NCBI GenBank assembly: GCA_043228905.1 | Contig: JBHGNT010000022.1 | Coordinates: 11,160,001 to 11,224,000 of the forward strand | Length of the DNA: 64,000 bases | Origin: Azolla caroliniana | Taxonomy: Eukaryota; Plantae; Polypodiophyta | Direction of reading: 5' to 3' | Part shown: one piece after another, positions 1 to 37,300 of the stretch | How positions within the stretch are numbered: the stretch's first letter is position 1 | How the letters are laid out: every line of letters begins with the position of its first letter | Position numbers and translations under genes: made by a program | Notes under the pieces: generated by a model | What the model was told of the DNA's origin: nothing | The model's database searches: none | What the model saw: only the letters and a program-made list of their open reading frames with translations

Positions 1-2653
1 GATGCCGACATACTTCCCGCATGACAATTTCGGCGGTGTCTTCACTAGATATTTCTTTAGTACATGGTAAGAAATGAGCCATCTTCGTATATCGATCCAC
101 CACTGTGAGAATCGCACTGAATCCCTTAGAGACTGGAAGATCTGTAATGAAGTCAAGAGCAATGGATTGCCATGGCTTGCTTGGAATTGGTAATGGTTCT
201 AATAAACCATATGGATGATGTCTTGGCATTTTCGCTCTGCAGCATGTATCGCAAGTCCGAACAAAATCTTCGACAAATTGTCGCATACGGGGCCACCAGA
301 ATGATCGTTGTACTAAATCTAATGTTTTAGTACTACCAAAATGTCCTGCTGTATATGTGTCATGGCAGTTTTGTACTACTCGAAGGCGGCAAGAACCATT
401 AGGAACATACAAAAGTTCTTTAAAGAAGAGTAATCCATCACAGTATTTGAATTGCCGATAATCCGTACCTGGTGATTGTGATTGTGAACATGACGCTCGA
501 GAGGGGTCAATTTGTGCTAGTATAGCTTGGGCGAAAGCGTCAGTCTTCAAGTCCTCACGTATAGTATTGGTAATGTCGGAATCCACGGGCATGTCAAAGA
601 TCTGTGCTGCTTGCAGTCGTGCTGGACCCAAGATTACTTGCTTCTGGTTATCGAAAGCTGGCTCACCGGGACGTGGTGTTAGATACGAACGCCGTGATAA
701 TGCATCTGCCTTCCCTTGGTGCTTCCCCGGACGATATGTAATTTTGAAGTCGAAGCGTGTGAGGAAGTGGGCCCACCGAGCTTGACGTCGATTCAGTACA
801 CGAGCATCTTGAAAGTAGGCAAGGTTCTTGTGGTCACTGAATACAGTGACCTGATGAGGAGATCCCTCCAGGAAATGCCTCCATTGCATAAAAGAATCAA
901 CTATTGCTAATAGCTCTTTATCATGAATTTCGTAGTTGATTTCGGCGGCGTCAAACTTACGGGAGTGGAAAGCCACAGGATGTAGCTTCTCGTCGTTACC
1001 CTGTTGTGACAGAATGCTCCCCAATGCGAAATCCGATGCATCAGCTTCGATAATGAATGGTTTTTCCGGATCCACATGACCTAAAATTGGAGCTGATGTA
1101 AACGCCTTCTTAAGACTCTCGAAAGCCATGTCCGTCTCTTTAGACCAAATGAATGATTGTCCCTTCCTGGTGAGCTGTGTGAGAGGCAGCACAATTTTTG
1201 AGTAATTTTGTATGAACTTCCGGTAGAAATTTGCAAAGCCTAGGAAGCATTGCACATCCCGCACCGAACGCGGAGTGTGCCATTCTATCACCGTTTTGAC
1301 CTTGGCTGGGTCCATAGATATGCCTTCTGAGGAGATGACATAGCCGAGAAACTCCACTTGGTTGCACCCGAAACTACATTTCTCTAACTTTGCATACAGA
1401 CCATGTTCTCGAAGTCGTTTTAGTACTAATAGTACATGAGAATCATGTTCTTCTTGGGTCTTTGAATAAACCAGTAGATCATCCAAATAGATGATCAAAA
1501 AATCATCCAAGAGATCTCGAAATATATCATTCGCCATGTGCTGGAAGACTGCCGGCGCATTAGTGAGTCCGAACGGCATGACCGTATACTCGAAGTGCCC
1601 ATATCTGGTGCGAAACGCGGTCTTCCATTCATCTCCTGGTCGGATCCGTACGAGGTTATAGGCTCCTCGTAAGTCGATCTTCGTGAAGAACCTGGCACCG
1701 TTGATCCGTTCTAAAAGACTTGAGATAAGGGGAAGAGCATACCTATTTCTTACTGTGACCTTATTCAAGCCACGGTAATCTACAACGAGTCGAAGCGAGC
1801 CATCTTTTTTCTTGACGAAGAAAATGGGTGCGCCGGCTGGAGATTTCGAATGCCGAATGAAACCGTTCTCCAAATTCTCCTCTATATAGGCTCGAAGGAC
1901 TTCTAGCTCGGTTGGTGACAAATTGTAGATCGGCCCCCATGGCGGCTCTTTTCCCGGTTGTAAGTCGATGGCGCAGTCGTACGGCCGATGATGAGGAAGT
2001 GTGTTGGCTTGTACTTTATCGAACACATCAGCATACTGACGATACTTCTCGGGAAGTTGAACGATGGACTCCTCTTTGGTGGTGCTGGAGGGTTGTACTG
2101 ATATTGCAAAGAGAAACATTTCCTCCTTGCGCCCTTCCTCACGCAACTGACGTAGCGAAATGGTTGCAACCTTCTGGGTAGATCCTTGGGTTTGTCGCAA
2201 CCGGATTTCCCTTGTCCTCCAATCTATGTCTGGGTCATGTAACTCGAACCATGGTAATCCTAAAACTATGGGATGTTCTGGAATACTAATAATATTAAAT
2301 GATACTACACATGTTAAGTTATCTAGGACAATATTAACGGGTTCCGACTCTTCTATGATATTACCAGAAGCAATGGGACGACCATCAATGACTACTACTG
2401 AGGCTGGACATGGGAGCTTTCTGAGAGATATCTGATGAACTCGGGCAAAATTCCTATCCATGAAGCAAGAATTAGCTCCAGAATCTAGAAGGGCTAAGGT
2501 ATGTACTGGAGGGGTACTTTTAGTACTAACTGCTACTTGGACTACGAACACATCACTAACTTGCTTAGAGGGAATGGAACCACTAATGGGCTGCACAGAT
2601 CTAGGGCTGTCCAACCAAACGGCTCCTATTTTGGCTGGACTTAGTCGTTTAAC
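1..2653 (-). CDS. pol: Gypsy pol polyprotein (PR-RT-RH-INT), -1 frame relative to gag, truncated by window edge
   Basis: LLDSGANSCFM (~2460-2490), YLDD (1478-1489) and the integrase His (341-343) fall in one frame. The ORF track lists no closed ORF in that frame, which is consistent with no stop before the edge. Confidence 0.9.
2601..2653 (-). promoter_or_regulatory. -1 programmed ribosomal frameshift signal (G_UUA_AAC, 6-nt spacer, stem-loop/pseudoknot)
   Basis: Heptamer at 2653-2647, spacer GACUAA, 11-bp stem GUCCAGCCAAA/UUUGGUUGGAC. The -1 frame leads directly into LLDSGA. Confidence 0.85.
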
Positions 2654-3810
2654 TCTTCTTCTAATTGGCTAAGGACATCAAATTTGTTTGCGAGATTCGG
2701 ACTATTAGTACTATTAGGACTATTATGACTATGAGGATTATCAGAGATTCCTACTGAAATAGACTCGGGTTTAGTATAGTCAGAACTAACAATGACTTGG
2801 TTTACCTGCCTTCTTGGTCTATGGGGACAGTTTATCGCGATATGCCCTGGTCCACCGCAATAAAGGCATAATCGGTTTGTTCGGCGTCGTTGCTTTTCCT
2901 CCTCCGATAGCGGCCCACGACGACGTGTAGTGTCAATTTCCATTGGAGTTGGAGTACTTACTGGAGGCGCATTATGTGACTCCCTTTGAAAAGGTTTCGC
3001 TACCACTGAGGCATAGGTAGGCTCGGATCTTGCCCTCGGCATCTGAAATTGTCGTTCCGAACGTCGCTCGAAGAGGCGGTTGTCACATCTGACCGCTCGA
3101 CTGATTGCTTCTGTTAATGATTTTGGCTCTTCAGGGAAAGTCAAGAGTAAATCCTTGACATCGTTGCGTAGACCATAGCGGAACTGCTCCATCAATGCTT
3201 GATCATCCCAGGGGATATCGGCGGCGAGTAGGCGGAAATCTGCAGCATATGCGGAGGCTGGACGGTCACCTTGGCGTAATCGCCGGATTTTGTTGATTGC
3301 AGTCCTTATGCTGTCAGTATCTCCAAAACATGCTTTAAACTCACTTATGAATTCTTCAAAATTATTTAGTACTGGAGATTCCTTTTCTAGTAGCGGAGCG
3401 AACCATGCTAATGCTGAGCCATTTAACAACGTGCCTACTAAACCCACTTGTGATGCATCGGTGGGATATCGGGACGGATGCATTTGAATAACTAACCGTA
3501 CCTGGTTAAGAAACCCTCTAAACTGCGATCGCGTTCCATCGAACTTTGTGGGAAGGCCAATCTTGGGTTCTTTATGAATCCCTTGTGCTCCGTGCCCTTG
3601 TTGTTGCATTGCTACGATGGTTGCTTCGAGTTGTTGCACGCGTAACGCAAGTTCCCCATGCTGTTGTTGCGTTTGCTGCTTTTCTAAGGAAATTTGCTGA
3701 AGATCCCCCAACAAGCGTTGATTTTCTTGTTCCAAAGCATGAAACTTCTCTTTCAAGCATTGAAATTCCGAGAAAACGGATTGATACTCTTCAGCGCTAA
3801 CGGTGGCCAT
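2641..3810 (-). CDS. gag: Gypsy Gag (coiled coil, retrotransposon capsid domain, CCHC zinc knuckle), 389 aa
   Basis: PTKFDGTRSQFRGFL, LRQGDRPASAYAADF, PTPMEID and CLYCGGPGHIAINC, typical of Tf1/sushi/PEG10-like Gag. Confidence 0.95.
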   Translation of the reverse strand: MATVSAEEYQSVFSEFQCLKEKFHALEQENQRLLGDLQQISLEKQQTQQQHGELALRVQQLEATIVAMQQQGHGAQGIHKEPKIGLPTKFDGTRSQFRGFLNQVRLVIQMHPSRYPTDASQVGLVGTLLNGSALAWFAPLLEKESPVLNNFEEFISEFKACFGDTDSIRTAINKIRRLRQGDRPASAYAADFRLLAADIPWDDQALMEQFRYGLRNDVKDLLLTFPEEPKSLTEAISRAVRCDNRLFERRSERQFQMPRARSEPTYASVVAKPFQRESHNAPPVSTPTPMEIDTTRRRGPLSEEEKQRRRTNRLCLYCGGPGHIAINCPHRPRRQVNQVIVSSDYTKPESISVGISDNPHSHNSPNSTNSPNLANKFDVLSQLEEELND

Positions 3811-4029
3811 GGGATGAAGGAAAAGGGAAATAAGAGACTAGTAGGAAAGGAGAGAGACAGAAGGAAGAGGGAGACTAGTAGGACCAAAATCGGTTCAAAC
3901 TGTCAGGAACTCTATTAAGGCAGAGAAGGAATTAGTACTAAAAGAAGGATTAGTACTATTGTTGGGGAATAGTACTAAGACAGAGAAGGATTAGTACTAT
4001 GAGAGGTGTCGAACTTTGAGAGAAGGAAT

Positions 4030-4105
<76 letters not shown>

Positions 4106-4224
4106 TGATGCGAAAGATATATGTATTATATGACGGAAGATATACAACAGTAGTTAGAAGGCTTAAGACTGGCGTTGAACCGATTTGGTTCGAACTAATG
4201 CCTTGCGCCTCCTTTTATAGTGTC

Positions 4225-4272
4225 TTCAGGAATACTCCTGAAGTTTCTAGAATGTTCCAGAGAAATCTGGAA
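4225..4272. promoter_or_regulatory. Heat-shock element array in LTR U3
   Basis: Ten pentamers in 5-bp phase: TTC GAA CTC GAA TTC GAA TTC GAG ATC GAA (7 perfect nGAAn/nTTCn), directly upstream of TATA. Confidence 0.8.
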
Positions 4273-4323
4273 TATACATCAATTTCCTAATAAAACCTAA
4301 ATGAAAATAATATCCTTCAAATT

Positions 4324-4391
4324 ACAACTCATAACCTAATGGTAAAGTCTCGACCCGTGTAACAAAAGGTTATGGGTTCGAGTCTAGTTGT
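4324..4391 (+). other. tRNA-like Pol III cassette (A box/B box) antisense within LTR U3
   Basis: A-box-like TAACCTAATGGTAAAG at 4332, B box GGTTCGAGTC at 4375, tRNA-like spacing (45 nt from T8-equivalent to T54-equivalent). Cloverleaf imperfect. Confidence 0.6.
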
Positions 4392-4409
4392 TCGAGTCTA
4401 GTTATGACA

Positions 4410-6112
4410 CTTACATCCCAATATGGTGGTTGTAACTTGCACAATTGTGACATAAGCCACAAATTGATACAAGTGGCGGTGGTGTTGTGCGCAAAGATGT
4501 AGAACTCAAATCTATGAGTAAAACATCAATAGGGGAACTCATGTGGTTTTACTCGAGTTGTAAGGCTCGATAATATGAGTTAAACCTAGATGAGCCGTTG
4601 GAAAAAATCGTTCAAAAAACGGCACGATGCCCACTCAATATTAAAAAATAGTCTACATGAATCGTTATACCATTAAACGTACGTAAATAGTGTAGATGAA
4701 CTTAAAATAAGGACAAGAAAGAGAGTTAATTGTGGGTGGGTAAATGACAATTACTAGAAAAGCATACAAAAGTGAAACGAAAATTTATGTAATTAGAAAT
4801 GAATTAGAATAATAATCAATTAGGTGTATGAATCATTAAGCGTGCCTTAAGGTATGAAACCCTAAGGTAGTCAACATGCACCTCATCAAGACCACCACAT
4901 CTCCCTAGAATTGGCCAATTGATGGCTCAATAAAAAGTAAAGTGGCATAGGTAAGCGGCATATACCTCGTTAAGGCCACAACATCCCATAGAATCGGCCA
5001 AGTTATGGCTCAATAGAGAGTAGAGTGGCATAGGTAGGCGACATACACCTCGTCATGGCCACAACATCCCATAGACTCGGCCAAGTGATGGCTCAATAGA
5101 GAGTGGACTGGCATAGGTAGGCAACATACACCTCGTCATGGCCACAACATCCCATAGACTCGGCCAAGTGATGGCTCAATAGAGGGAAGAGTGGCCTACT
5201 CAACATCGAATGCAAAAGGTCCATGAAGTGAGAATGTGCGAGTAGGGCAAACACGCTCAACCCAATGCACAACAATAATTAATATCGTAAGAGAAGGCTC
5301 AAGAGAGGGGAGAGTGGGAGATACATCGCAATATGCAAAAGGCCATGAGTTGAGCGTGTGCGATTAGTGCAAACACGCTCGGCCCAATGCACAATAATAA
5401 TTAAAATCGTATCGTGGTAGAAAGAATAAAGAAAAGAAAAGAAAACGTAATACAAATTTGATTCGACCTTAAAGAACGCATCATCGAAAGAAGAGAGAGA
5501 TCGAGAAAGAAGAATACCAGGTTAAGAATGTTGTTTTGATCCTGTGAAGACCATGACAAGCCTTGTTAGATCCCCATCGCTCACACGCAAAAAACATCAA
5601 AACAACAAAAAAAATTGTTAGTAAATGCTTTGATACCACTGTTAAGAGTCTATTACTAATCAATAGACCAAACTAAAGTAAAAGAAGGAAAATAGAATGG
5701 ATAGAATAACCCGTTCCCGCTTACCACCCTTGAGCTATGATCTAGACATAGCCAACCTACCACCGACGTCCCATACCGCCGGATATTAGGATGACTAATA
5801 CCTTGGAGGAGATAAACACGATCATTGAGACGAAAGCCTAGCCCGCACCACCGGTGTCTAAGACATCAGCCTTCTGACATAATGTCATTATGAGGGTAGC
5901 TAAGCCTCATATTTATACCTTTTCCTAGGCCCCTTGAATAGATGTGCCTTTCTAAAAGGCTCTCCATTCATTGGTTGTCCAAATCATGATAGTGCATGCA
6001 CTTATCATTCCTTCTATCCAATCATTAGTCCCTTTTTTAACATTAGGGAACATACCCTTCACTAATGTAAATATTGGTGACCTACCCTCACCAACATTAT
6101 GTGTACATAACA
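4410..6112 (-). mobile_element. LTR retrotransposon remnant: 5' LTR (5640-6112), tRNA-iMet PBS and non-coding leader with tandem repeats
   Basis: TGTTA...TAACA termini and PBS TGGTATCAAAGCA (5626-5638 on minus). Right end abuts the YVDD codons of a Copia RT; left end is interrupted by the Gypsy LTR. Confidence 0.75.
4880..5412. repeat. Tandem repeats: ~3.5 x 83 bp, then 2 x ~123 bp
   Basis: TGGCATAGG recurs at 4943, 5026 and 5109; GCAAACACGCTC...CCCAATGCACAA occurs twice. Confidence 0.85.
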
Positions 6113-8474: not shown

Positions 8475-10688
8475 ATGGGGAAGAACAAAGAAGCTTCAGC
8501 AGCAGCAGCACAGCCCCCCAAAGGCTCCTCCAAAGACAGCAAGAAAGAATCCCAACAACCCAAGAAGGAGAAGCTGTCTGTCTCGGCTTTCCTCGCTGGC
8601 CTCGATAGCAAGAGTAAAGACAGCCTCCCCGGTGCCAAACCTAAACCTAAACCTAAGCAAGCCAAAGCTCAAGATGACTACATCTCCGGTCTCGATCTGC
8701 CCCCTTCCGATGACGATGAAGAAGATGAAAGACCTGAGATCAGCGAAGAAGAGATGGAGAAAAGAAGGCACCAGGCTGAATTTGGTCCCGGGATGGGCGC
8801 GGCGTCAGAGAAGGATGCCAAGAAAAAGGAGAAGAAGGATCAGATGGCTGCCCACGTGGCCGAGATAGCGAAGAAAGAAGCTCTCAAGGATGATAGGAGT
8901 GCTTTCTCTGTTGTGGTCGGGTCCCGGACCTCAATCCTCGACGGTGAAGATGGCGATGGCGATGCCAATCTCAAGGACATCTCGGTGGAGAATTTCTCGG
9001 TCTCGGCACGAGGTAAGGAGCTCTTTAAGAATGCTTCGGTTAAGATTGCTCATGGTCACAAGTATGGACTTGTGGGTCCTAATGGGAAGGGTAAATCTAC
9101 CCTTCTCAAGCTTCTTGCATGGCGACAGCTCCCAGTACCAAAGAATATCGACATTCTATTGGTTGAGCAAGAGGTCGTGGGTGATGAGAGAACCGCTTTA
9201 GAAGCCGTCGTATCGGCCAATGAAGAGCTCATCAGGCTCCGAGAAGAGGCAATAAGGTTGCAGAACCTCACCCTTCTAGATGATGATGACGAAGAAGAGG
9301 AGATGAATGGTAAGGAGAAGGATCCCGAGATATATACAGCAGGTGAGAAGTTAACCGAGGTCTATGAAAAGCTTCAAATGATGGGTTCAGATGCAGCCGA
9401 AGCACATGCTTCCAAGATATTGGCTGGATTAGGGTTCACCAAGGCCATGCAAGGGCGGGCCACCAAATCCTTTAGTGGAGGGTGGAGAATGAGAATATCG
9501 TTGGCCCGTGCTCTCTTTGTTCAACCCACCTTGTTGCTGCTCGACGAACCCACCAACCACTTGGATCTACGAGCTGTGTTGTGGTTAGAGGAGTATCTGT
9601 TGAGGTGGAAGAAGACCCTCGTGGTGGTTTCTCATGATCGCGATTTTCTCAACTCCGTCTGCACGGACATCATCCACCTCCACGACGAGAAATTGCATCT
9701 CTATCGGGGAAATTTTGACGCTTTTGAAGTGGGTTATGAGCAAAAACGCAAGGAAGTGAACAAGAAGTTTGAGACATATGATAAGCAAATAAAGGCAGCG
9801 CAAAGGAGCGGAAGCAAAGCCCAACAAGACAAGGTGAAAGATCGAGCAAAGTATGCCGCGGGGAAAGAAGCTCGATCGAAGGGAAAAGGAAAATCTGGGG
9901 CAGAGGAGGATGAGACCCCTATTGTAGAAGTACCTAAGAAATGGAAAGATTACAGTGTACAATTTGACTTTCCTGAACCAACTGAGCTGACGCCACCTCT
10001 TCTCCAACTCATCGAGGTTCATTTTAGCTATCCTGGGAGGGAAGATTTTGCTCTCAAGGGTATCGATGTCGGCATTGATATGGGCACCCGAGTAGCCATA
10101 GTGGGCCCGAACGGAGCAGGGAAATCCACTCTACTTAACCTGCTTGCAGGTGACCTAGAGCCATTACAAGGGGAATGTCGAAGAAGCCAGAAGCTCCGGA
10201 TCGGGAGATATTCTCAACATTTTGTGGATTTGCTTACTATGGATGAGACCCCAGTGCAATATTTGTTGAGGCAATATCCGGATCAAGAAGGGCCAAGCAA
10301 ACAAGAAACAGTTCGAGCAAAGTTGGGGAAGTTTGGCTTACCGAGCCATAATCACCTTACACCTATCATAAAACTCTCTGGAGGGCAAAAGTCCAGGGTT
10401 GTGTTCACGGCCATTTCAATGGCAAAACCTCATATTTTGCTCTTAGATGAGCCTACCAATCACCTGGATATGCAAAGTATCGATGCTTTAGCGGATGCTT
10501 TGGGTAAGTTTACAGGTGGAGTAGTGCTCGTGAGTCATGATTCTCGCCTGATCTCTCAAGTTTGCGAAGATGAAGAGAAGAGCGAGATATGGATTGTTGA
10601 TAATGGGACTGTAAGGAAATATCCAGGGTCTTTTGAGGAATATAAGACAGAGTTACAAAGGGAGATCAAAGCTGAAGTGGATGAGTAG
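8475..10688 (+). CDS. ABCF4: ABC transporter F family member 4-like (soluble twin-ABC ATPase), intronless, copy 1
   Basis: 737-aa ORF with two Walker A motifs (GPNGKGKST, GPNGAGKST), signatures FSGGW and LSGGQ, LLLDEPTNHLD twice, and no TM domains. N-terminus MGK...SKDSKK...KEKLSVSA is like plant ABCF4. Confidence 0.95.
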   Translation: MGKNKEASAAAAQPPKGSSKDSKKESQQPKKEKLSVSAFLAGLDSKSKDSLPGAKPKPKPKQAKAQDDYISGLDLPPSDDDEEDERPEISEEEMEKRRHQAEFGPGMGAASEKDAKKKEKKDQMAAHVAEIAKKEALKDDRSAFSVVVGSRTSILDGEDGDGDANLKDISVENFSVSARGKELFKNASVKIAHGHKYGLVGPNGKGKSTLLKLLAWRQLPVPKNIDILLVEQEVVGDERTALEAVVSANEELIRLREEAIRLQNLTLLDDDDEEEEMNGKEKDPEIYTAGEKLTEVYEKLQMMGSDAAEAHASKILAGLGFTKAMQGRATKSFSGGWRMRISLARALFVQPTLLLLDEPTNHLDLRAVLWLEEYLLRWKKTLVVVSHDRDFLNSVCTDIIHLHDEKLHLYRGNFDAFEVGYEQKRKEVNKKFETYDKQIKAAQRSGSKAQQDKVKDRAKYAAGKEARSKGKGKSGAEEDETPIVEVPKKWKDYSVQFDFPEPTELTPPLLQLIEVHFSYPGREDFALKGIDVGIDMGTRVAIVGPNGAGKSTLLNLLAGDLEPLQGECRRSQKLRIGRYSQHFVDLLTMDETPVQYLLRQYPDQEGPSKQETVRAKLGKFGLPSHNHLTPIIKLSGGQKSRVVFTAISMAKPHILLLDEPTNHLDMQSIDALADALGKFTGGVVLVSHDSRLISQVCEDEEKSEIWIVDNGTVRKYPGSFEEYKTELQREIKAEVDE

Positions 10689-12499
10689 ACAAACTAAATG
10701 AAAAGAAAAATCAAATGAGAAAAGAAATCAATCATTGATTTTGTTAGTTTTTTATTATACAAAATGTATTCGTACCTGAAGAGTTTGTTGTTAAGGTCCC
10801 AAAGACTTTAAATCGGCATGGATCGATTTTATTTTCTTCTTCCCAGATTGTTCTAATGTGATCTTCTGTTTTTTTAATGTATGACATTGTGTTAGTTCTT
10901 ATTTGTGCGCTGAATATACATGCGCAGAGAAAGCAGTTAGCTCTCAAGGTCTTCGGTTATACAATATGGTCATTCTTTTGGCCGCTTTATCATTTCTTGT
11001 AATTGTTACTTGTAGTAATTGAATAAAAGCTTCATATATGAAGTATAAAATGAACTCTTTCTGCATTGAATAAAATTCAAACTCACCTAGTTTGCTAAAA
11101 GAATCAACATGTGCTCTCTGTTTTACTGTAAAGAATCCAAACCTTAATTGTTTTAATGATAAAAAAAATCCCTACCTTGGATTGTCATGTAATGAAGTTT
11201 AGGTAACAAGTTGGATATGCACATTATATAGAGACTAAAGCAATCATCTCCTAAAACTGTTTGTCACCCATTGCAGTGATTTCATTTCATTGGAATGCAT
11301 GTCAAATTTCTGGGTTTGATTCCATTCTCCCTCTAGATGATCCAAGCATGTCGTTTTAGAATTAAAACAATTTGTTGCAAGTTGTGAATTGAACTTTATT
11401 CTACTTGTGAGTGTATGTGGTTTATTTCTCTCCTGTGGATTTTAATAATGTGTTTGTCGCCCATGGATCTGTTTATATCTTCTATCTGTATGTCTATAAA
11501 TGGTGTTTCCCAACAATCTTTTTCACTGCTCTCATTGTGTGAATGTGGATTTTAAATCAAAACATTGGAGAGTTCTTCCATATCAATTCAAAATTTCAAC
11601 CACAAAACTCCCCATTTCTTTTGCATAGATGTGATCTCACACTTCAACCGAATAAAATTACATATTCTCATTACTTCTCCAGCAATATTCACAGCATCCA
11701 AATTCTATATAGCCTTGCTACTCATGCCTTTCATTATGAGGACATATTGTATATTTAAAAGGTGGGAACCATGGAATGTCTGAGATTCAAATGCAACCAC
11801 TAGACACCAAAAAGGCATGGTTATGAGCAAGCAAAGGCCCTCATGTTAATCTTCCAAGTTGAGGAAGATTCGAACTTCATCTGCTTTTGGAAATAGCTTA
11901 ACATTTAGGTCACCATTCTCGAACACACTATTGAATATGGCATCTCCTGATTCTCTTTTCCATAAACCTGAACAGGTAAAGCTGTAGGTCGACCTTTTAA
12001 AACACTGCAATGTCAGCTTCATTTCAGGCTACATAATGTGTACATCAAGGATTTTCCTCTCATTCTCATTCTAAATCAGTTAGGTTCTTAGAGAGAATAT
12101 CGATTTTATTTCCCATTATGACATATCTTAACAGGATCAAAGAGATTTTTATCATATTGACCTTTGACAGCCAGTCTCAGTTTATTATTTAATTGCCCAA
12201 CAGCTTCTATAGGATATTGTGAAGCATTGGAACTGGCTTCTATCCCAATAATGACCAATTTCAGAATTTACAAACATTGACCATCTCACCATCTGCTTAC
12301 ATTTCCAATAACAAACACTTTACTTCTTCTGTATCTGGTGATAATAAATCATCTCTACTATTGCAATACTACAAGTTTACTTAACTTCTTTTGGGATAAA
12401 GAAACACATCTTCCCTGAACTTGAAATACCAAACAATTTCTATATAGCATAACCAAATACGAAGTAGTTTATCTCATACAATACACATCAAAGACTCCC

Positions 12500-15870: not shown

Positions 15871-16589
15871 CATACTGTCACTCACACACCAAGCACTGAG
15901 GAATATCATTCGTTCTTACTTTATTTCATTATATTATATTATTTATTTTGTTAGTTATGAGAAGATTCTATTCACTACTTGCAATGAATAGTTTTCCATG
16001 TGGCATGCATTCAAATGAAGTGAAATTGGCACGAAGAGAAACAAATGGTTTCAGTAGGTCATTGCTTAAGTCTCTACATAAGGAGTACATCCGACTTGTT
16101 CAATATATTTAGGGAAGATCGTTATGATATACATGGCCAAGTAAACAAAAGAGAGCAATTCTAAGCTAGTTTTAAAAAGAAGGTGACTTTCTATTTCATT
16201 CAATGAAGAAAGCATTCACTTTTCCCTTAATATACAAAGAATATCTTCATTTCAAGAAGATTGAAGCTTTATTCAAATATGACAACCAACAATCAAAAGA
16301 AACATTTGAATAATCCTGTTGTCTACCCATGGACTCTGAAAAAAGAACTCTCTCTGTCATGTACATTCATATCAAAACGAAAAAGTTATGATTGTTTTGT
16401 CTCAATAAAAAAATAGGCATCCCATTCGAACTATCTGGGAAGAAGAAAATAAAACAATCCACTCCCATTTTAAGTCTCTGAGGCCTTAATAGAAAACTCT
16501 TACCAAGCAAAAACAAAATTTTGGAAGAGGAAAAATAGACAAATAATTGATTTCTCTGCTATTTTGATTTTTCTTTTCATTTAGTTTGT

Positions 16590-18824
16590 CTACTCATCCA
16601 CTTCAGCTTTGATCTCCCTTTGTAACTCTGTCTTATATTCCTCAAAAGACCCTGGATATTTCCTTACAGTCCCATTATCAACAATCCATATCTCGCTCTT
16701 CTCTTCATCTTCGCAAACTTGAGAGATCAGGCGAGAATCATGACTCACGAGCACTACTCCACCTGTAAACTTACCCAAAGCATCCGCTAAAGCATCGATA
16801 CTTTGCATATCCAGGTGATTGGTAGGCTCATCTAAGAGCAAAATATGAGGTTTTGCCATTGAAATGGCCGTGAACACAACCCTGGACTTTTGCCCTCCAG
16901 AGAGTTTTATGATAGGTGTAAGGTGATTATGGCTCGGTAAGCCAAACTTCCCCAACTTTGCTCGAACTGTTTCTTGTTTGCTTGGCCCTTCTTGATCCGG
17001 ATATTGCCTCAACAAATATTGCACTGGGGTCTCATCCATAGTAAGCAAATCCACAAAATGTTGAGAATATCTCCCGATCCGGAGCTTCTGGCTTCTTCGA
17101 CATTCCCCTTGTAATGGCTCTAGGTCACCTGCAAGCAGGTTAAGTAGAGTGGATTTCCCTGCTCCGTTCGGGCCCACTATGGCTACTCGGGTGCCCATAT
17201 CAATGCCGACATCGATACCCTTGAGAGCAAAATCTTCCCTCCCAGGATAGCTAAAATGAACCTCGATGAGTTGGAGAAGAGGTGGCGTCAGCTCAGTTGG
17301 TTCAGGAAAGTCAAATTGTACACTGTAATCTTTCCATTTCTTAGGTACTTCTACAATAGGGGTCTCATCCTCCTCTGCCCCAGATTTTCCTTTTCCCTTC
17401 GATCGAGCTTCTTTCCCCGCGGCATACTTTGCTCGATCTTTCACCTTGTCTTGTTGGGCTTTGCTTCCGCTCCTTTGCACTGCCTTTATTTGCTTATCAT
17501 ATGTCTCAAACTTCTTGTTCACTTCCTTGCGTTTTTGCTCATAACCCACTTCAAAAACGTCAAAATTTCCCCGATAGAGATGCAATTTCTCGTCGTGGAG
17601 GTGGATGATGTCCGTGCAGACGGAGTTGAGAAAATCGCGATCATGAGAAACCACCACGAGGGTCTTCTTCCACCTCAACAGATACTCCTCTAACCACAAC
17701 ACAGCTCGTAGATCCAAGTGGTTGGTGGGTTCGTCGAGCAGCAACAAGGTGGGTTGAACAAAGAGAGCACGGGCCAACGATATTCTCATTCTCCACCCTC
17801 CACTAAAGGATTTGGTGGCCCGCCCTTGCATGGCCTTGGTGAACCCTAATCCAGCCAATATCTTGGAAGCATGTGCTTCGGCTGCATCTGAACCCATCAT
17901 TTGAAGCTTTTCATAGACCTCGGTTAACTTCTCACCTGCTGTGTATATCTCGGGATCCTTCTCCTTACCATTCATCTCCTCTTCTTCGTCATCATCATCT
18001 AGAAGGGTGAGGTTCTGCAACCTTATTGCCTCTTCTCGGAGCCTGATGAGCTCTTCATTGGCCGATACGACGGCTTCTAAAGCGGTTCTCTCATCACCCA
18101 CGACCTCTTGCTCAACCAATAGAATGTCGATATTCTTTGGTACTGGGAGCTGTCGCCATGCAAGAAGCTTGAGAAGGGTAGATTTACCCTTCCCATTAGG
18201 ACCCACAAGTCCATACTTGTGACCATGAGCAATCTTAACCGAAGCATTCTTAAAGAGCTCCTTACCTCGTGCCGAGACCGAGAAATTCTCCACCGAGATG
18301 TCCTTGAGATTGGCATCGCCATCGCCATCTTCACCGTCGAGGATTGAGGTCCGGGACCCGACCACAACAGAGAAAGCACTCCTATCATCCTTGAGAGCTT
18401 CTTTCTTCGCTATCTCGGCCACGTGGGCAGCCATCTGATCCTTCTTCTCCTTTTTCTTGGCATCCTTCTCTGACGCCGCGCCCATCCCGGGACCAAATTC
18501 AGCCTGGTGCCTTCTTTTCTCCATCTCTTCTTCGCTGATCTCAGGTCTTTCATCTTCTTCATCGTCATCGGACGGGGGCAGATCGAGACCGGAGATGTAG
18601 TCATCTTGAGCTTTGGCTTGCTTAGGTTTAGGTTTAGGTTTAGGTTTGGCACCGGGGAGGCTGTCTTTACTCTTGCTATCGAGGCCAGCGAGGAAAGCCG
18701 AGACCGAGAGCCTCTCCTTCTTGGGTTGTTGCGAGTCTTTCTTGCTGTCTTTGGAAGAAGTGGAAGGCGCTCCTCTTCCATCATCTGCGAGTCTCTCTTG
18801 CTGGACCTTCTTCTTGGGACCCAT
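16590..18824 (-). CDS. ABCF4: ABCF4-like copy 2, intronless, with a foreign NRPA2-like N-terminus
   Basis: 744-aa ORF nearly identical to copy 1 from SSKDSKK onward. First 18 codons align with NRPA2 exon 1. Confidence 0.95.
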   Translation of the reverse strand: MGPKKKVQQERLADDGRGAPSTSSKDSKKDSQQPKKERLSVSAFLAGLDSKSKDSLPGAKPKPKPKPKQAKAQDDYISGLDLPPSDDDEEDERPEISEEEMEKRRHQAEFGPGMGAASEKDAKKKEKKDQMAAHVAEIAKKEALKDDRSAFSVVVGSRTSILDGEDGDGDANLKDISVENFSVSARGKELFKNASVKIAHGHKYGLVGPNGKGKSTLLKLLAWRQLPVPKNIDILLVEQEVVGDERTALEAVVSANEELIRLREEAIRLQNLTLLDDDDEEEEMNGKEKDPEIYTAGEKLTEVYEKLQMMGSDAAEAHASKILAGLGFTKAMQGRATKSFSGGWRMRISLARALFVQPTLLLLDEPTNHLDLRAVLWLEEYLLRWKKTLVVVSHDRDFLNSVCTDIIHLHDEKLHLYRGNFDVFEVGYEQKRKEVNKKFETYDKQIKAVQRSGSKAQQDKVKDRAKYAAGKEARSKGKGKSGAEEDETPIVEVPKKWKDYSVQFDFPEPTELTPPLLQLIEVHFSYPGREDFALKGIDVGIDMGTRVAIVGPNGAGKSTLLNLLAGDLEPLQGECRRSQKLRIGRYSQHFVDLLTMDETPVQYLLRQYPDQEGPSKQETVRAKLGKFGLPSHNHLTPIIKLSGGQKSRVVFTAISMAKPHILLLDEPTNHLDMQSIDALADALGKFTGGVVLVSHDSRLISQVCEDEEKSEIWIVDNGTVRKYPGSFEEYKTELQREIKAEVDE

Positions 18825-33007: not shown

Positions 33008-33141
33008 ATGTAAGTACCATAGGTCAAACAATAACCATATATGTGTCATGAAGGTAAGTACCATAGGCCAAAAAAGAACTATATATGTGTCATGAAGGTA
33101 AGTACCATAGGCCAAAAAAGAACTATATATGTGTCATGAAG
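33008..33141. repeat. 3 x ~44-bp tandem repeat overlapping the start of the second Tcn1-like LTR
   Basis: GTAAGTACCATAGGCCAAAAAAGAACTATATATGTGTCATGAAG repeated. Confidence 0.85.
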
Positions 33142-33154
33142 ACATACATTTTAG

Positions 33155-33220
33155 CTTATGAGGAGTCGAACCCACAACTTCTTGGTCTGTGTTCAACCTT
33201 TAACCATTGTAATAGCATAT
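33155..33220 (-). other. tRNA-like Pol III cassette antisense within LTR U3
   Basis: Minus strand A-box-like TATTACAATGGTTAA (from 33214) and perfect B box GGTTCGACTCC (33172-33162) at tRNA-like spacing. Confidence 0.6.
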
Positions 33221-33269
33221 ATTATGTGTAGGTAAAATAATTATATTTTTAGTTATTACAAGATATTTG

Positions 33270-33355
33270 GAATATTCTAGAACATTCTTGAATATTTCAC
33301 GATTATATTTATTATCAAAAATATCTAAATTATTCTAGAACATTCTAGAATACTC
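33270..33355. promoter_or_regulatory. Two heat-shock elements in LTR U3
   Basis: GAAtaTTCtaGAAcaTTCttGAA (33270-33292) and TTCtaGAAcaTTCtaGAA (33333-33350), upstream of CTATAAATA at 33365. Confidence 0.8.
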
Positions 33356-34319
33356 CATAAGGATCTATAAATAGGTGTTTATACATTCATCACAACTTAT
33401 TCGGTTCAACACCAGTCTTTAGCCCTTAGCCTACTCTTTGTAACATTGTTTTCTCATAATATAATATCATTTCCATTTTCTCTCTCTCTCTCTCTCTAAC
33501 TCACGAGTCACGACAGTTTGAACTGAATTCTTTCTTTTTCCTTCTTTATTTTTCCCTCTCAGTTATGGAGTCCGTTAGCAAGCAAGAATATATGCGTGTC
33601 CTTTCTAAATTCGACATGCTCACTACTAAGTTTGTGGCATTAGAGCAAGAAAATCAATGGCTACTCTAGGATCAACAACACGTGAGTACCGAGAAAGCTC
33701 ACCAATATGAGGAGTTATCACAACAGGTTCATCAACTCGAGGCTACTATATTAGCATTACGAGAACAAGCGGTGGGGGTTCAAAACTTGCCAGGGAACCA
33801 AAGATTAGCCTCCCTGCCAAGTTTGATGGTACAAGATCTCTGTTCCGAGGTTTCTTGAATCAAGCCCGTTTGGTGATTCAGTTACATCCCAATCGGTGTC
33901 CAACCGATGCTGCTCGTGTGGGATTAGTAGGAACCGTGCTAAGCGGTACAACATTAGCATGGTTTGCACCACTTCTTGAGAAGAAATCAACGTTGTTGGA
34001 GGATTTCGGGGCATTTGTTGAGTTTCAAGCTAGTTTTGGAGACACCGATAGCACTAGGACGACAATAAACAAGTTTCGAAGACTCCGACAAGGAGATCGT
34101 CCCACTTCAGCTTACGCAACAGATTTCCATCTCTTGGCATGCAACATCCCTTGGGATGAGGCAGCCTTAATGGATCAATTCCATCAGGGTTTGCATAACG
34201 ATGTCGAAGATTTTCTTCTTACTTTCCACGAAGATCCGAAGTCTCTTACATAGGCAATTAGTCGAGTTATATGATGTGATAATCACCTATTTGAGCGACA
34301 TTCTGAACACCAACAAAAT

Positions 34320-37300
34320 GTCCCATTCGACAAAGAAGGTGACCAAACCTTTATTAAAAATGTCTTGCATGTACCAACCATTACGAAGAATTTGGTCTCC
34401 GTCGGCCAAATTGATGAGCAAAGGATACAAGTACGATTTAATCAAGGCGGTTGCTTCACCGAAAAAGAGGGCCGACTCATCACTCGCGAACGATGTCGTG
34501 ATGTTTTCGACACATAGTGCGAAAACCACCCTCAAAAGAGAATAAAATAGTAGTCCAAATAAACTAATGTTGTTAAATCAACTATAGTAATAAATGAAAG
34601 GATAAAAAGTTAGAAGCAGTTTTCGAAAGTAGACAAAAATAGAGAAAAAGATAGGAAAAGAAAAGCTAGCCGTGGATATGAGGAGCAAGGTCGAGTAAAA
34701 AGCTTGTAATTTCCTCATCCAATGTCCAAATTAGAAAAGGAAAGATTCATAAGAAAGCTAACAGAAATAGCTTTCTAAGAGTAGCTTGCATGTCAGATTT
34801 GACGTTACGGAACAGAAATAGTGATAAAAAGAAAACTCGACTCATATAGTACTCTAAGCCTTCTTACTTATCAGACTAATTAAGTATTATTCAATATCGC
34901 ATAATCTCCTACTCGAAGATTTGCTTATGCATAAATGTAATTAACTATTATTGGATCTCGTATATTACCAATTTACTCTTATTAGAGGGAAATCTCTCGT
35001 CTCTAAGCTTAAAGTGCATTAAGCGTCAAACCCTAAATCTTTCCGGTCCAACACCCCGGCGGTTCCGCCTCACGATCCGCACTTACTGGCGGATTTTCAC
35101 GACAACGAAGAGAGGGCCCAATGTTTATTCTCGACTCGCACGAGATGAAATCGGCCATGTTCGCAAAGGGCACGAAAGCCGATTCCGACATAGAGTTATG
35201 GCAGAAGCGAATTGGCCATATCAACCTCCAAAAGCTCAAGGCAATGCAATCGAAAGGAGTCATCATCGGGCTCCCGACATTCAAGGAGAAAGAGATTGAA
35301 GGTGTGTGTGCTGCTTGCCAATTCGGCAAGCAACATCGGCACCCATTTCCAAAGGAGCGGAACGTGAGTAAAGGCGTACTCGACGTAATTCATTCTGATG
35401 TATAGGGTCTGGCTCTGACGACTACATTCGCCGGATGCCGATATTATACGGCCTTCATCAAAGACTTTTCTAGGCACACCTGGATCTACCCCATGCGGCA
35501 AAAGAGCGAAGTGTTCAGACACTTCCAAAAATTTAAGAATGAAGTCGAGAAAGCCACGGGCCGACATGTACGATGTCTTCAGTCGGATGGAGAAAAAGAG
35601 TACTTCTCCGACGAATTTACAACGTATCTCCGAAAGGAAGGAATCCAACAAGAATTCTCGTGCCGACACACACCTCAACAAAATGGTGTAGCTGAATAAA
35701 AGAATCAACATATCCTCGAAGTAGCACGGGCCATGATGAATGAAAAGCATATACCAAAAGCGTATTGGGCAGAAGCAGCTAAGACAAAAATATACCTCAT
35801 GAATCGGTGTACGACATCGGGTGTGCACAAACTTACTCTACACGAGAAGTTTTTCGGAAAGAAGCCGGACCTATCACATGTTCGGGTATTCGGCTCCATT
35901 GCGTACGTGCACATCCCCGACGAGAAACGACAAAAGCTCAACTTGAAGTCGGAGAAATGTATCCTCGTAGAATACGCACTGGAGCAAAAGGGGTACAAGT
36001 GCTATAACCCCTCAACTCGAAAATCTCGAGTAAGTCGAGACATTGTTTTCGACGAGTCAGCATCTTTGTACGCACCAGAGACAACTTCGACTCTGATTCC
36101 GCTCAACCCGGAATCCGCCGAAATAGAGATAGAAGCCGGAGATCAGCTCACACGCATGTTCGAAGAAAGCCTAATTATGACAAGGCTTAATGGGCCACAA
36201 GAGCCTCCAAGCAATCAAAGCACATCTTGGCCGAGTCTGGAGCTGGACAAAGGGAAGGCGAAAATGCCAGAGTATGAAGACGATCACTTCGACGACAACA
36301 AATCGACTCACTCCCTCGATAGTGAGTTCGAAGGCCTTGACATCCAGACAAATGGAACAAAAAAAGCCTTAGTATCCGCAAACGAGAAGCTCCGCCGATC
36401 CACCCGTTAAAAGAACCTCGTAAGCCGATTTGGCTGCAACGATTATATGGCATACCATTACGCCTTTATGAGGAAGGTGGCAATAGTACGGGAGCCGAAA
36501 ACGTTTTCCGAAGCCGCGAAGGACCCTAGATGGGTTGAAGCGATGAACGAGGAGATGCAAGCACTCTCCAAAAACAAGACGTGGGATCTTGTCCCCCACT
36601 CACCGCACAAGAAGGCGATGGGTTGCAGATGGATCTACATGGTGAAGTATAATGTTGACAACTTTGTAAACCACTACAAATATCGACTCGTAGCAAAAGG
36701 ATACGCACAAACGCATGTAGTCGACTATGAAGAGACATTTGCCCCGATGGCAAAGATGACAATTATGCGGACCGTGATCGCACTCACAACGACGAAAGGG
36801 TGGCACCTCCACCAGATGGACGTCAAGAACGCCTTTCTTCAAGGCAAATTAGAAGAGGAGGTGTACATGGTAGAACCACCTGGCTTCGAATCCAGCATTC
36901 ATCCGAAACCCGTATGCCAACTCAAGAAGCCTCTTTACGGCCTTAAGCAAGCACTCGTGCTTGGCATTTGAAGATTATGCAATATCTTCATCAAATCGGC
37001 TTTTGAATGTCAAAATCTGACAATTCCCTCTACGTACGAAATGACTCTAGAAGCTCGATTGTCATCATCCTATATGTGGATGATCTGGTGATTAAAGGAG
37101 AAAGTTCAGTCAACATCAACAAGTTGAAATCCCTCCTCTCCAACAAATTCGAGGTGATGGACATGAAGGACCTTCATTACTTCCTAGGCATCGAAGTAAT
37201 TCGGATTCCGACTGGCATTATGATCTCTCAATGGCACTACATTCTCAACTTATTATACAAGTTCAGGATGACAGAGTGCAAATCTATGGCAACCCCTCTC

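What the first reader, a model, noticed from the sequence alone, without database searches (positions are those of the whole stretch)
4324..4391. tRNA-derived Pol III promoter at the U3 edge, pointing out of the element
Seen: TAACCTAATGGTAAAG...GGTTCGAGTC here and TATTACAATGGTTAA...GGTTCGACTCC at 33214-33162. Both are antisense to gag, both lie within ~85 bp of the LTR 5' end, and A-to-B spacing is 44-45 nt as in tRNA. In this copy the anticodon-position loop reads CG-TGT-AA (Thr-like). Known: small-RNA-gene sequences occur in the LTRs of non-autonomous elements (5S in Cassandra, tRNA-like in Helenus). Here the carrier has intact gag and an open pol.
Basis: partly seen in the sequence, partly recalled or inferred. 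Interest (0 to 1): 0.7.

Follow-up and report, generated by a model that had tools for sequence, protein, structure and literature searches.

The report
Backward tRNA promoter in retrotransposon LTRs
The end repeats of many protein-coding jumping-gene families in a plant genome (probably a moss) carry a conserved, backward-facing pair of tRNA-gene promoter boxes that has lost the tRNA fold and likely recruits RNA polymerase III factors as a boundary beside the element's own promoter, though binding and transcription are untested.

Summary
Largely confirmed and much wider than reported. Both segments are A-box/B-box pairs at tRNA spacing, antisense, at the U3 edge of Tcn1-type, self-priming chromoviruses. 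They are the top two sites in the window under a box model trained on tRNA genes from this assembly (33.3 and 24.7 bits; shuffle maximum 22.3). Genome-wide, 1,446 of 2,272 PPT-LTR junctions carry an exact B-box complement near the edge. At least 17 Tcn1-type LTR families were seen with it. Between deep families, pol synonymous sites are near saturation while the boxes stay 74-87% identical and the middle is random, so the boxes are maintained. The cloverleaf, anticodon arm and the 'Thr' assignment are not supported; Rfam and ARAGORN find nothing. Some Phygy-like families and a free (GA)n-associated repeat carry related cassettes; Met-primed elements and 71 distant metagenome chromoviruses do not. 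No RNA evidence was available. Best reading: a TFIIIC/TFIIIB landing site that likely shields or opens the LTR's Pol II promoter (0.45); rivals are tRNA annealing as in Ty3, an antisense transcript, or a relic. Known only from non-autonomous TRIMs in the papers searched; this scan noted similar cassettes earlier in fungal chromovirus LTRs.

The parts
3901..4409 (-). 5' LTR (509 bp, TGTCA...TGACA) of a 5,832-bp Tcn1-type chromovirus (family F1); the 3' LTR lies left of the window and is identical apart from a (CT)n length
4332..4342 (+). A box (tRNA positions 8-19), antisense to the element
4367..4384 (+). B box (4375-4384, positions 52-61) with its conserved 8-nt lead-in (positions 44-51)
4390..4403 (+). 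14-bp tandem duplication of the B-box end; seen only in this element's two LTRs among 29 LTR copies printed
4240..4257 (-). nGAAn-type (heat-shock-element-like; label recalled) array in U3 between cassette and TATA
4212..4219 (-). TATA box of the element's own (Pol II-type) promoter
4174..4185 (-). predicted self-primer at the start of R, complementary over 11 nt to the PBS
3888..3900 (-). self-priming PBS directly after the 5' LTR (no tRNA 3'-end complement)
2641..3810 (-). gag (Retrotrans_gag, Ty3_capsid, zf-CCHC), open frame
2..2668 (-). pol (RT, RNase H, integrase), open and running off the window; ends in a chromodomain beside the PPT
33132..33515 (+). 5' LTR of a second, older Tcn1-type family (F2), followed by a self-priming PBS
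33204..33214 (-). A box of the F2 cassette
33163..33180 (-). B box and lead-in of the F2 cassette
33564..34330 (+). decayed F2 gag (stops, frameshift), followed by Copia sequence

Best explanation
Self-priming Tcn1-type chromoviruses of this genome keep an outward-facing A-box/B-box pair at the 5' edge of U3, and this pair likely binds TFIIIC and positions TFIIIB inside U3, which would form a nucleosome-poor boundary between flanking heterochromatin and the LTR's own Pol II promoter. Shown: the boxes, their place, orientation and spacing, their conservation while the sequence between them and synonymous pol sites have diverged, the loss of the cloverleaf, and a separate TATA/self-primer system that makes the element's own RNA independent of the boxes. 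Inferred: ultimate descent from a tRNA or tRNA-headed repeat; TFIIIC binding (about 0.7); that the benefit is insulation or opening of the Pol II promoter (about 0.45 overall). Any Pol III transcript would run out of the element (5' LTR) or antisense into the integrase end (3' LTR), away from the Pol II start.
For: Fixed feature: 1,446 of 2,272 PPT-LTR junctions carry TYRARCYC 5-35 nt after TGTCA, reversed-pattern control 0; of the 38 misses among the first 100 junctions listed, 24 score >=15 bits and 31 >=10 antisense, best sense score 3.9. 53 of 54 distinct 3' LTR ends score >=15 antisense, 0 of 54 sense (most of these loci were fetched by likeness to cassette-bearing LTRs, so searches are the unbiased ones). 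Selection: over six deep family pairs, fourfold pol sites are 0.32-0.44 identical (chance 0.27-0.30), A box 0.74, lead-in 0.73, B box 0.87, middle 0.35-0.40, upstream 0.34. Pattern of a promoter, not an RNA: G53, T55, C56, A58 are kept in 17 of 17 families and position 59 is free; cloverleaf pairing 10.6 of 21 against 9.75 for shuffles and 20.9 for host tRNAs; no shared fold (z from -5.6 to +1.3); conservation per position follows that of host tRNAs in general (rho 0.60). Context: tRNA genes and TFIIIC sites act as heterochromatin barriers (PMC12409998, passages); Tcn1-type RLG1 sits in heterochromatic islands yet is expressed (PMC7466625, passages).
Against: No binding, chromatin or RNA data: all runs laid were contigs. 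G10 of the classical A box is kept in only 4 of 13 families and the A half is degenerate in some families. Spacing is tight (23-25 nt between G19 and position 44) although TFIIIC tolerates 32-93 bp in yeast; my matrix also favours tRNA spacing, and box identities are inflated by the patterns used to locate them. Positions 44-51 are conserved beyond the classical B box. The cassette is dispensable elsewhere: 0 of 71 distant chromovirus loci, 26 of 30 Phygy-like 5' ends without an antisense hit. Barrier activity is documented in yeast and mammals in the passages read, not in plants.
Confidence: 0.45

Rival explanations
1. The cassette works in the genomic RNA, not the DNA: being complementary to the D and T arms of tRNAs, it would anneal cellular tRNA just after the PPT (as the U3 half of the bipartite Ty3 PBS does) to help packaging, dimerisation or strand transfer.
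For: In Ty3 the T arm and D arm of the primer tRNA pair with U3 (PMC5371799, passages), which in DNA looks like antisense A and B boxes. Tight tRNA-like spacing and conserved positions 44-51. Allowing G-U, F1 could pair with tRNA-Arg(TCT) at 17 of 18 and 11 of 11 positions.
Against: Tcn1-type elements self-prime and have no tRNA PBS. Other host tRNA genes score 23-26 of 29 against Arg(TCT) by the same rule, the cassettes 25.7 on average, so the match is generic; 12 of 13 families have G46 where Arg(TCT) has A. In Trp-primed Phygy-like elements the cassettes match tRNA-Trp (13-15 of 18, longest run 6) less well than Arg(TCT). Sense-oriented and tandem cassettes occur in Phygy-like LTRs. Only 11 tRNAs were tested; initiator Met was not among them.
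Confidence: 0.2
2. The product matters: Pol III makes an outward or antisense RNA that limits the element (antisense to the integrase/chromodomain end) or alters neighbouring loci.
For: Both boxes are kept, with an A+T-rich upstream stretch like that of host tRNA genes (by eye); from the 3' LTR the transcript would cross the PPT into pol.
Against: No conserved terminator: first T4 lies 16-843 nt after the B box in 11 families (weak test, since host tRNA genes also vary, 13-338 nt or none). No conserved fold. Half of the cassettes (5' LTRs, solo LTRs) would read random flanking DNA.
Confidence: 0.17
3. A passive relic: an old tRNA-headed repeat fell into an ancestral LTR and hitchhikes, spread by LTR recombination.
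For: A free (GA)n-associated repeat carries the same cassette as family F5, so cassettes do move between repeats; a close-R-region relative from a metagenome (L257) lacks it.
Against: Boxes are conserved while the 23-25 nt between them are randomised and synonymous sites are near saturation; a relic would decay evenly. If cassettes were instead gained recently many times, the constant place and orientation still needs selection.
Confidence: 0.1
4. The cassette is a landing pad: TFIIIB/TFIIIC on it steers integration of this or other elements (Ty3-like targeting).
For: Lead from earlier scan note e1-10420520 (fungal genome; unchecked).
Against: 0 of 73 distinct outer flanks of Tcn1-type insertions have a cassette or tRNA gene within 400 nt in either orientation. 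Targeting by other lineages was not tested systematically.
Confidence: 0.05

Closest known systems
Helenus / TRIMp3 (Kojima 2024, PMC10886601; parts 1-4 of 6 and searched passages read, supplements not read)
   Same: tRNA-derived sequence inside LTRs, conserved at boxes A and B, unlikely to encode a working tRNA, parent tRNA hard to name, function untested.
   Different: Helenus is non-autonomous, 311-1,263 bp, tRNA-primed, and its boxes are proposed to drive its own RNA; the paper expects autonomous partners to use Pol II promoters. Here the carriers are 5-6 kb gag-pol elements that self-prime, keep a TATA, and hold the boxes antisense upstream of it. The paper notes that 'not a few LTRs' in Repbase resemble part of a tRNA but analyses TRIMs only.
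Cassandra (5S-derived TRIM; as described in PMC10886601)
   Same: Internal Pol III promoter carried in both LTRs.
   Different: 5S type 1 promoter, transcribes the element itself, non-autonomous.
Tcn1 clade chromoviruses of mosses and club-mosses (PMC6317226, PMC2864245, PMC3350952; passages), including RLG1 (PMC7466625; passages)
   Same: Short gag-pol element, chromodomain after integrase, self-priming, 5-bp TSD, TG...CA LTRs.
   Different: No tRNA-like U3 cassette appears in the passages read (0 occurrences of 'tRNA' in PMC7466625 main text). Identity of F1/F1b with RLG1 was not tested.
tDNA and ETC chromatin barriers (PMC12409998; passages)
   Same: A/B or B boxes that work through TFIIIC irrespective of an RNA product.
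   Different: Described for host loci in yeast and mammals; here the boxes ride in mobile LTRs by the thousand, and binding is untested.
Ty3 bipartite PBS (PMC5371799; passages)
   Same: U3 sequence complementary to tRNA D and T arms.
   Different: Ty3 pairs with its own primer tRNA; here Tcn1-type elements have no primer tRNA and Phygy-like cassettes do not match theirs best.

Membership tests
Tcn1 chromovirus | Ty3/gypsy domain order with chromodomain after integrase | tested here: met
   RT, RNase H, integrase, SH3, Chromo PF00385
Tcn1 chromovirus | self-priming: PBS complementary to the start of R, not to a tRNA end | tested here: met
   11-nt complement in F1, F2 and others; priming itself is predicted
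Tcn1 chromovirus | placement in the Tcn1 clade of an RT tree with reference elements | not tested
   no reference set was on hand
Type 2 Pol III promoter | A box and B box at compatible spacing | tested here: met
   G10 not conserved
Type 2 Pol III promoter | TFIIIC binding | not testable with these tools
   needs ChIP/CUT&Tag or gel shift
Type 2 Pol III promoter | Pol III transcript starting just upstream of the A box | tested here: inconclusive
   only contigs were served
tRNA gene | cloverleaf with acceptor and anticodon stems | tested here: not met
   10.6 of 21 pairs against 9.75 shuffled, 20.9 real; ARAGORN 0; Rfam none; own model 10.6-14.1 bits
Helenus / TRIMp3 | small-RNA-gene-derived boxes in the LTR | tested here: met
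Helenus / TRIMp3 | short, non-autonomous, no coding region | tested here: not met
   5,832 bp with open gag and pol
Helenus / TRIMp3 | tRNA-complementary PBS | tested here: not met
   self-priming PBS
Helenus / TRIMp3 | boxes placed to transcribe the element's own RNA | tested here: not met
   antisense in 53 of 54, sense in 0 of 54
Independent SINE insertion | sporadic among copies, with own tail and TSD | tested here: not met
   fixed in both LTRs and across families; no A-rich tail visible in the 10-35 nt to the LTR edge (by eye)
Ty3-like bipartite PBS | U3 complement specific for the element's primer tRNA | tested here: not met
   no primer tRNA in Tcn1-type; Trp not the best match in 7 of 7 Phygy-like cassettes
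Phygy (for the second carrier lineage) | no chromodomain, compact, NCGN target site | tested here: met
   no Chromo hit in 3 pol proteins; NCGN at 3 of 3 element ends read; features from PMC6317226
Phygy (for the second carrier lineage) | tree placement with reference Phygy elements | not tested
   no reference set was on hand

The most novel reading that the evidence does not exclude
Autonomous LTR retrotransposons of two unrelated Ty3/gypsy lineages carry a portable, tRNA-derived TFIIIC/TFIIIB boundary module at the U3 edge, exchanged with free repeats, that lets heterochromatin-targeting elements stay expressed and seeds thousands of extra Pol III factor sites across a plant genome.
Probability: 0.35. 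Interest if true: 0.82.

Novelty: new variant of a known kind. Interest (0 to 1): 0.63.

Why it matters
Small-RNA promoters in LTRs are described for tiny non-autonomous elements, where they make the element's RNA. Here a whole set of coding-competent families keeps such boxes backwards, where they cannot do that job, so they must be doing another. If they bind TFIIIC, this offers a direct, testable answer to how chromodomain elements that land in heterochromatin remain transcribed, and it predicts thousands of unannotated Pol III factor sites and false tRNA calls in such genomes. Mosses allow precise editing (recalled), so the test is within reach.

Tried and rejected
Rfam scans of both segments: no tRNA hit at E<=10. 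ARAGORN: 0 genes in the window. Thr origin: rejected. Arg(TCT) origin or pairing: best or near best among 11 tRNAs but not above what unrelated tRNAs score; left open. A shared hairpin: strong in F1b (z -5.6) and weak in F1, absent in most others. Conserved terminator: none. Landing pad for Tcn1-type insertions: 0 of 73 flanks. Expression: no RNA holder listed; contigs of 7 coded runs laid show related LTRs with the boxes in other organisms' assemblies but say nothing on strand or start. Viral contig collection: no relatives. Metagenome relatives: 80 loci, 9 dropped for under 150 nt downstream, 0 of 71 positive; for many the LTR start was not located, so absence is soft; the one close relative (L256, 79%) shows the cassette by eye. 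L119 repeat first read as a Copia LTR; its relatives show no coding domains, so this was dropped. A paper on a tRNA-like stretch in HIV-1 U3 (recalled) was not found or held and is not used as evidence. Literature searches for the feature itself that did not turn up a description; subscription papers, Repbase entries and the supplements of PMC10886601 and PMC6317226 were not seen and may bear on novelty.

Full report
The carrier. The segment lies in the 5' LTR (window 4409-3901, minus strand) of a 5,832-bp element whose two LTRs are identical except for a (CT)n length, with an open gag frame and an open 1,203-codon pol frame ending in a chromodomain next to the PPT. The PBS after the LTR is complementary to the start of R, about 34 nt behind a TATA box, and not to a tRNA end; this is the self-priming arrangement that Neumann et al. 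give for the Tcn1 clade of mosses and club-mosses (PMC6317226, passages). The host is therefore probably a moss (inference; 523 Mb). This copy's flanks (GTAAG/GTATA) are not a perfect TSD, while 12 of the 13 pairs checked have one. The second site belongs to an older, decayed family (F2) with the same self-priming PBS.

The observation. I trained an A+B weight matrix on tRNA genes found by ARAGORN in loci of this assembly (the set includes organellar or bacterial-looking genes and two misregistered Gln rows). Rfam and ARAGORN see no tRNA. A covariance model from 20 tRNAs gave hits at positions matching the cassette in 17 of 21 LTR loci, at only 10.6-14.1 bits against 77-79 for two control tRNAs. 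In tRNA register, 11 families pair 10.6 of 21 stem positions, shuffles with the boxes fixed 9.75, host genes 20.9; acceptor and anticodon stems are at chance, D and T stems slightly above. The Thr reading needs a one-base shift and has no stem.

How general. In 861.5 kb of fetched blocks (chosen near known repeats, not by the boxes), all 10 LTR starts found through the chromodomain showed the cassette on reading. Of 81 chromodomain hits in a larger set, 7 had no PPT found and the rest collapsed to 54 distinct LTR ends: 53 scored >=15 bits antisense, none sense (this set is enriched for known carriers). Unbiased counts: 2,272 PPT-TGTCA junctions genome-wide, 1,446 with an exact B-box complement 5-35 nt in; among the first 100 junctions listed, 62 matched, and of the other 38, 24 scored >=15 and 31 >=10 bits, best sense 3.9. 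The B box sits 11 to more than 60 nt from the edge depending on family, so it is not the integrase end.

Maintained, not decaying. Fourfold-degenerate pol sites between F1, F2, F3 and F4 are 0.32-0.44 identical (chance 0.27-0.30), yet A box, lead-in and B box are 0.74, 0.73 and 0.87 identical, and the middle and upstream 0.34-0.40 (the box values are inflated by the locating patterns, the contrast with the middle is not explained by that alone because every family has the pair at the same place). Across 17 families G53, T55, C56, A58 and T47 are invariant and position 59 is free. Conservation per position tracks that of host tRNAs in general (rho 0.60), no single tRNA of 11 stands out (exact matches 17.5-21.0 of 29), G10 is lost in 9 of 13 families, and the spacer stays at 23-25 nt. 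Folds are family-specific and no terminator is conserved.

Other carriers and non-carriers. A chromodomain-less, tRNA-Trp-primed lineage with NCGN target sites (Phygy-like; pol 23-24% identical to the Tcn1-type pol; 5,561 exact PBS matches) has related cassettes in some families, sometimes in tandem and sometimes also in sense. 4 of 30 PBS-selected 5' ends were antisense-positive, 0 of 30 internal controls; on an unrooted gag tree of 33 rows the carriers fall in several deep branches and the two large groups lack it (L073 is labelled 'none' there only because its 5' LTR is cut off). Met-primed elements: 1 of 30, and that hit is a neighbouring Tcn1-type LTR. A free repeat beside (GA)n runs carries two facing cassettes, one clearly the same as that of family F5, so cassettes move between repeats, direction unknown. 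Distant chromoviruses from metagenomes (36-55% identity) were negative in 71 of 71 scored; L257, whose R region resembles F5, lacks it. Contigs from other coded organisms hold close LTR relatives with the boxes.

Mechanism. U3 reads, from the edge: B box, A box (both backwards), A+T-rich stretch, nGAAn array (6 of 7 families), TATA, self-primer. The boxes cannot make the genomic RNA. What is conserved is what a type 2 promoter needs (PMC12409998, passages), placed between flank and Pol II promoter, in elements whose chromodomain class is linked to heterochromatin targeting (PMC3350952, PMC7466625; passages). I therefore favour a TFIIIC/TFIIIB boundary (0.45). The Ty3 precedent of U3 pairing with tRNA D and T arms (PMC5371799, passages) is the main rival (0.2): it explains the tight spacing and lead-in, but these elements have no primer tRNA, Phygy-like cassettes do not match Trp best, and the apparent fit to Arg(TCT) is what unrelated tRNAs also score. 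An antisense RNA as the selected product (0.17), a passive relic (0.1) and a landing pad (0.05; 0 of 73 flanks) follow. No step beyond sequence conservation was shown.

Novelty. Closest is Helenus (PMC10886601; parts 1-4 of 6 and passages read), which fails three membership tests here. That paper mentions unanalysed tRNA-like parts in other Repbase LTRs, so the motif may have been glimpsed. Six searches found no description of an antisense, conserved A/B pair in autonomous moss LTRs; only listings were seen for papers not named above, and PMC2864245, PMC6911290 and PMC11346459 (passages) added nothing on it. Earlier notes of this scan report similar cassettes in fungal chromovirus LTRs (unchecked). 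Verdict: real, conserved, new variant of a known kind; function open; interest 0.63.

Noticed in passing
window 4240-4257 (-) and 33265-33355 (+): Arrays of nGAAn/nTTCn units (heat-shock-element-like, label recalled) between cassette and TATA in 6 of 7 Tcn1-type families.
   Followed up: partly
L119 900-1200; L396-L415: High-copy (2,871 first-look candidates) non-coding repeat next to (GA)n runs, built of tail-to-tail tRNA-like A/B cassettes in about 230-bp tandem units; no coding domains or clear LTR ends; one cassette is shared with Tcn1-type family F5.
   Followed up: partly
L163 3087-3700, L345, L120, L362: Phygy-like LTRs with tandem antisense cassettes plus a sense cassette just after the TATA box.
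   Followed up: partly
G000-wide: The tRNA family search returned about 58,700 rough first-look candidates; in 861.5 kb, 93 box pairs >=17 bits were found, 22 of them tRNA-like genes.
   Followed up: partly
window 8526-10879 (+) and 16403-18758 (-): Intronless ABC-transporter (two ABC_tran domains) open frame present as a 97% identical inverted pair.
   Followed up: no
L064, L065, L067 (G000:C22 about 11.09-11.13 Mb): tRNA-Gln genes and decayed copies inside tandem repeats interleaved with Copia sequence.
   Followed up: no
L031, L048, L049, L173, L182, L184, L186; one search list: Host tRNA genes occur in long single-isotype tandem arrays (Lys, Ile, Arg, Thr, Trp), many without a T4 run close behind.
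   Followed up: no
window 4410-4414 and the flank beyond the 3' LTR: Identical LTRs but mismatched target-site flanks in this copy, unlike 12 sister pairs; recombination between copies is possible.
   Followed up: partly
L033, L045, L053 (small contigs C27, C73 and others): Clusters of different tRNAs that look organellar or bacterial on small contigs and as inserts on large ones.
   Followed up: no
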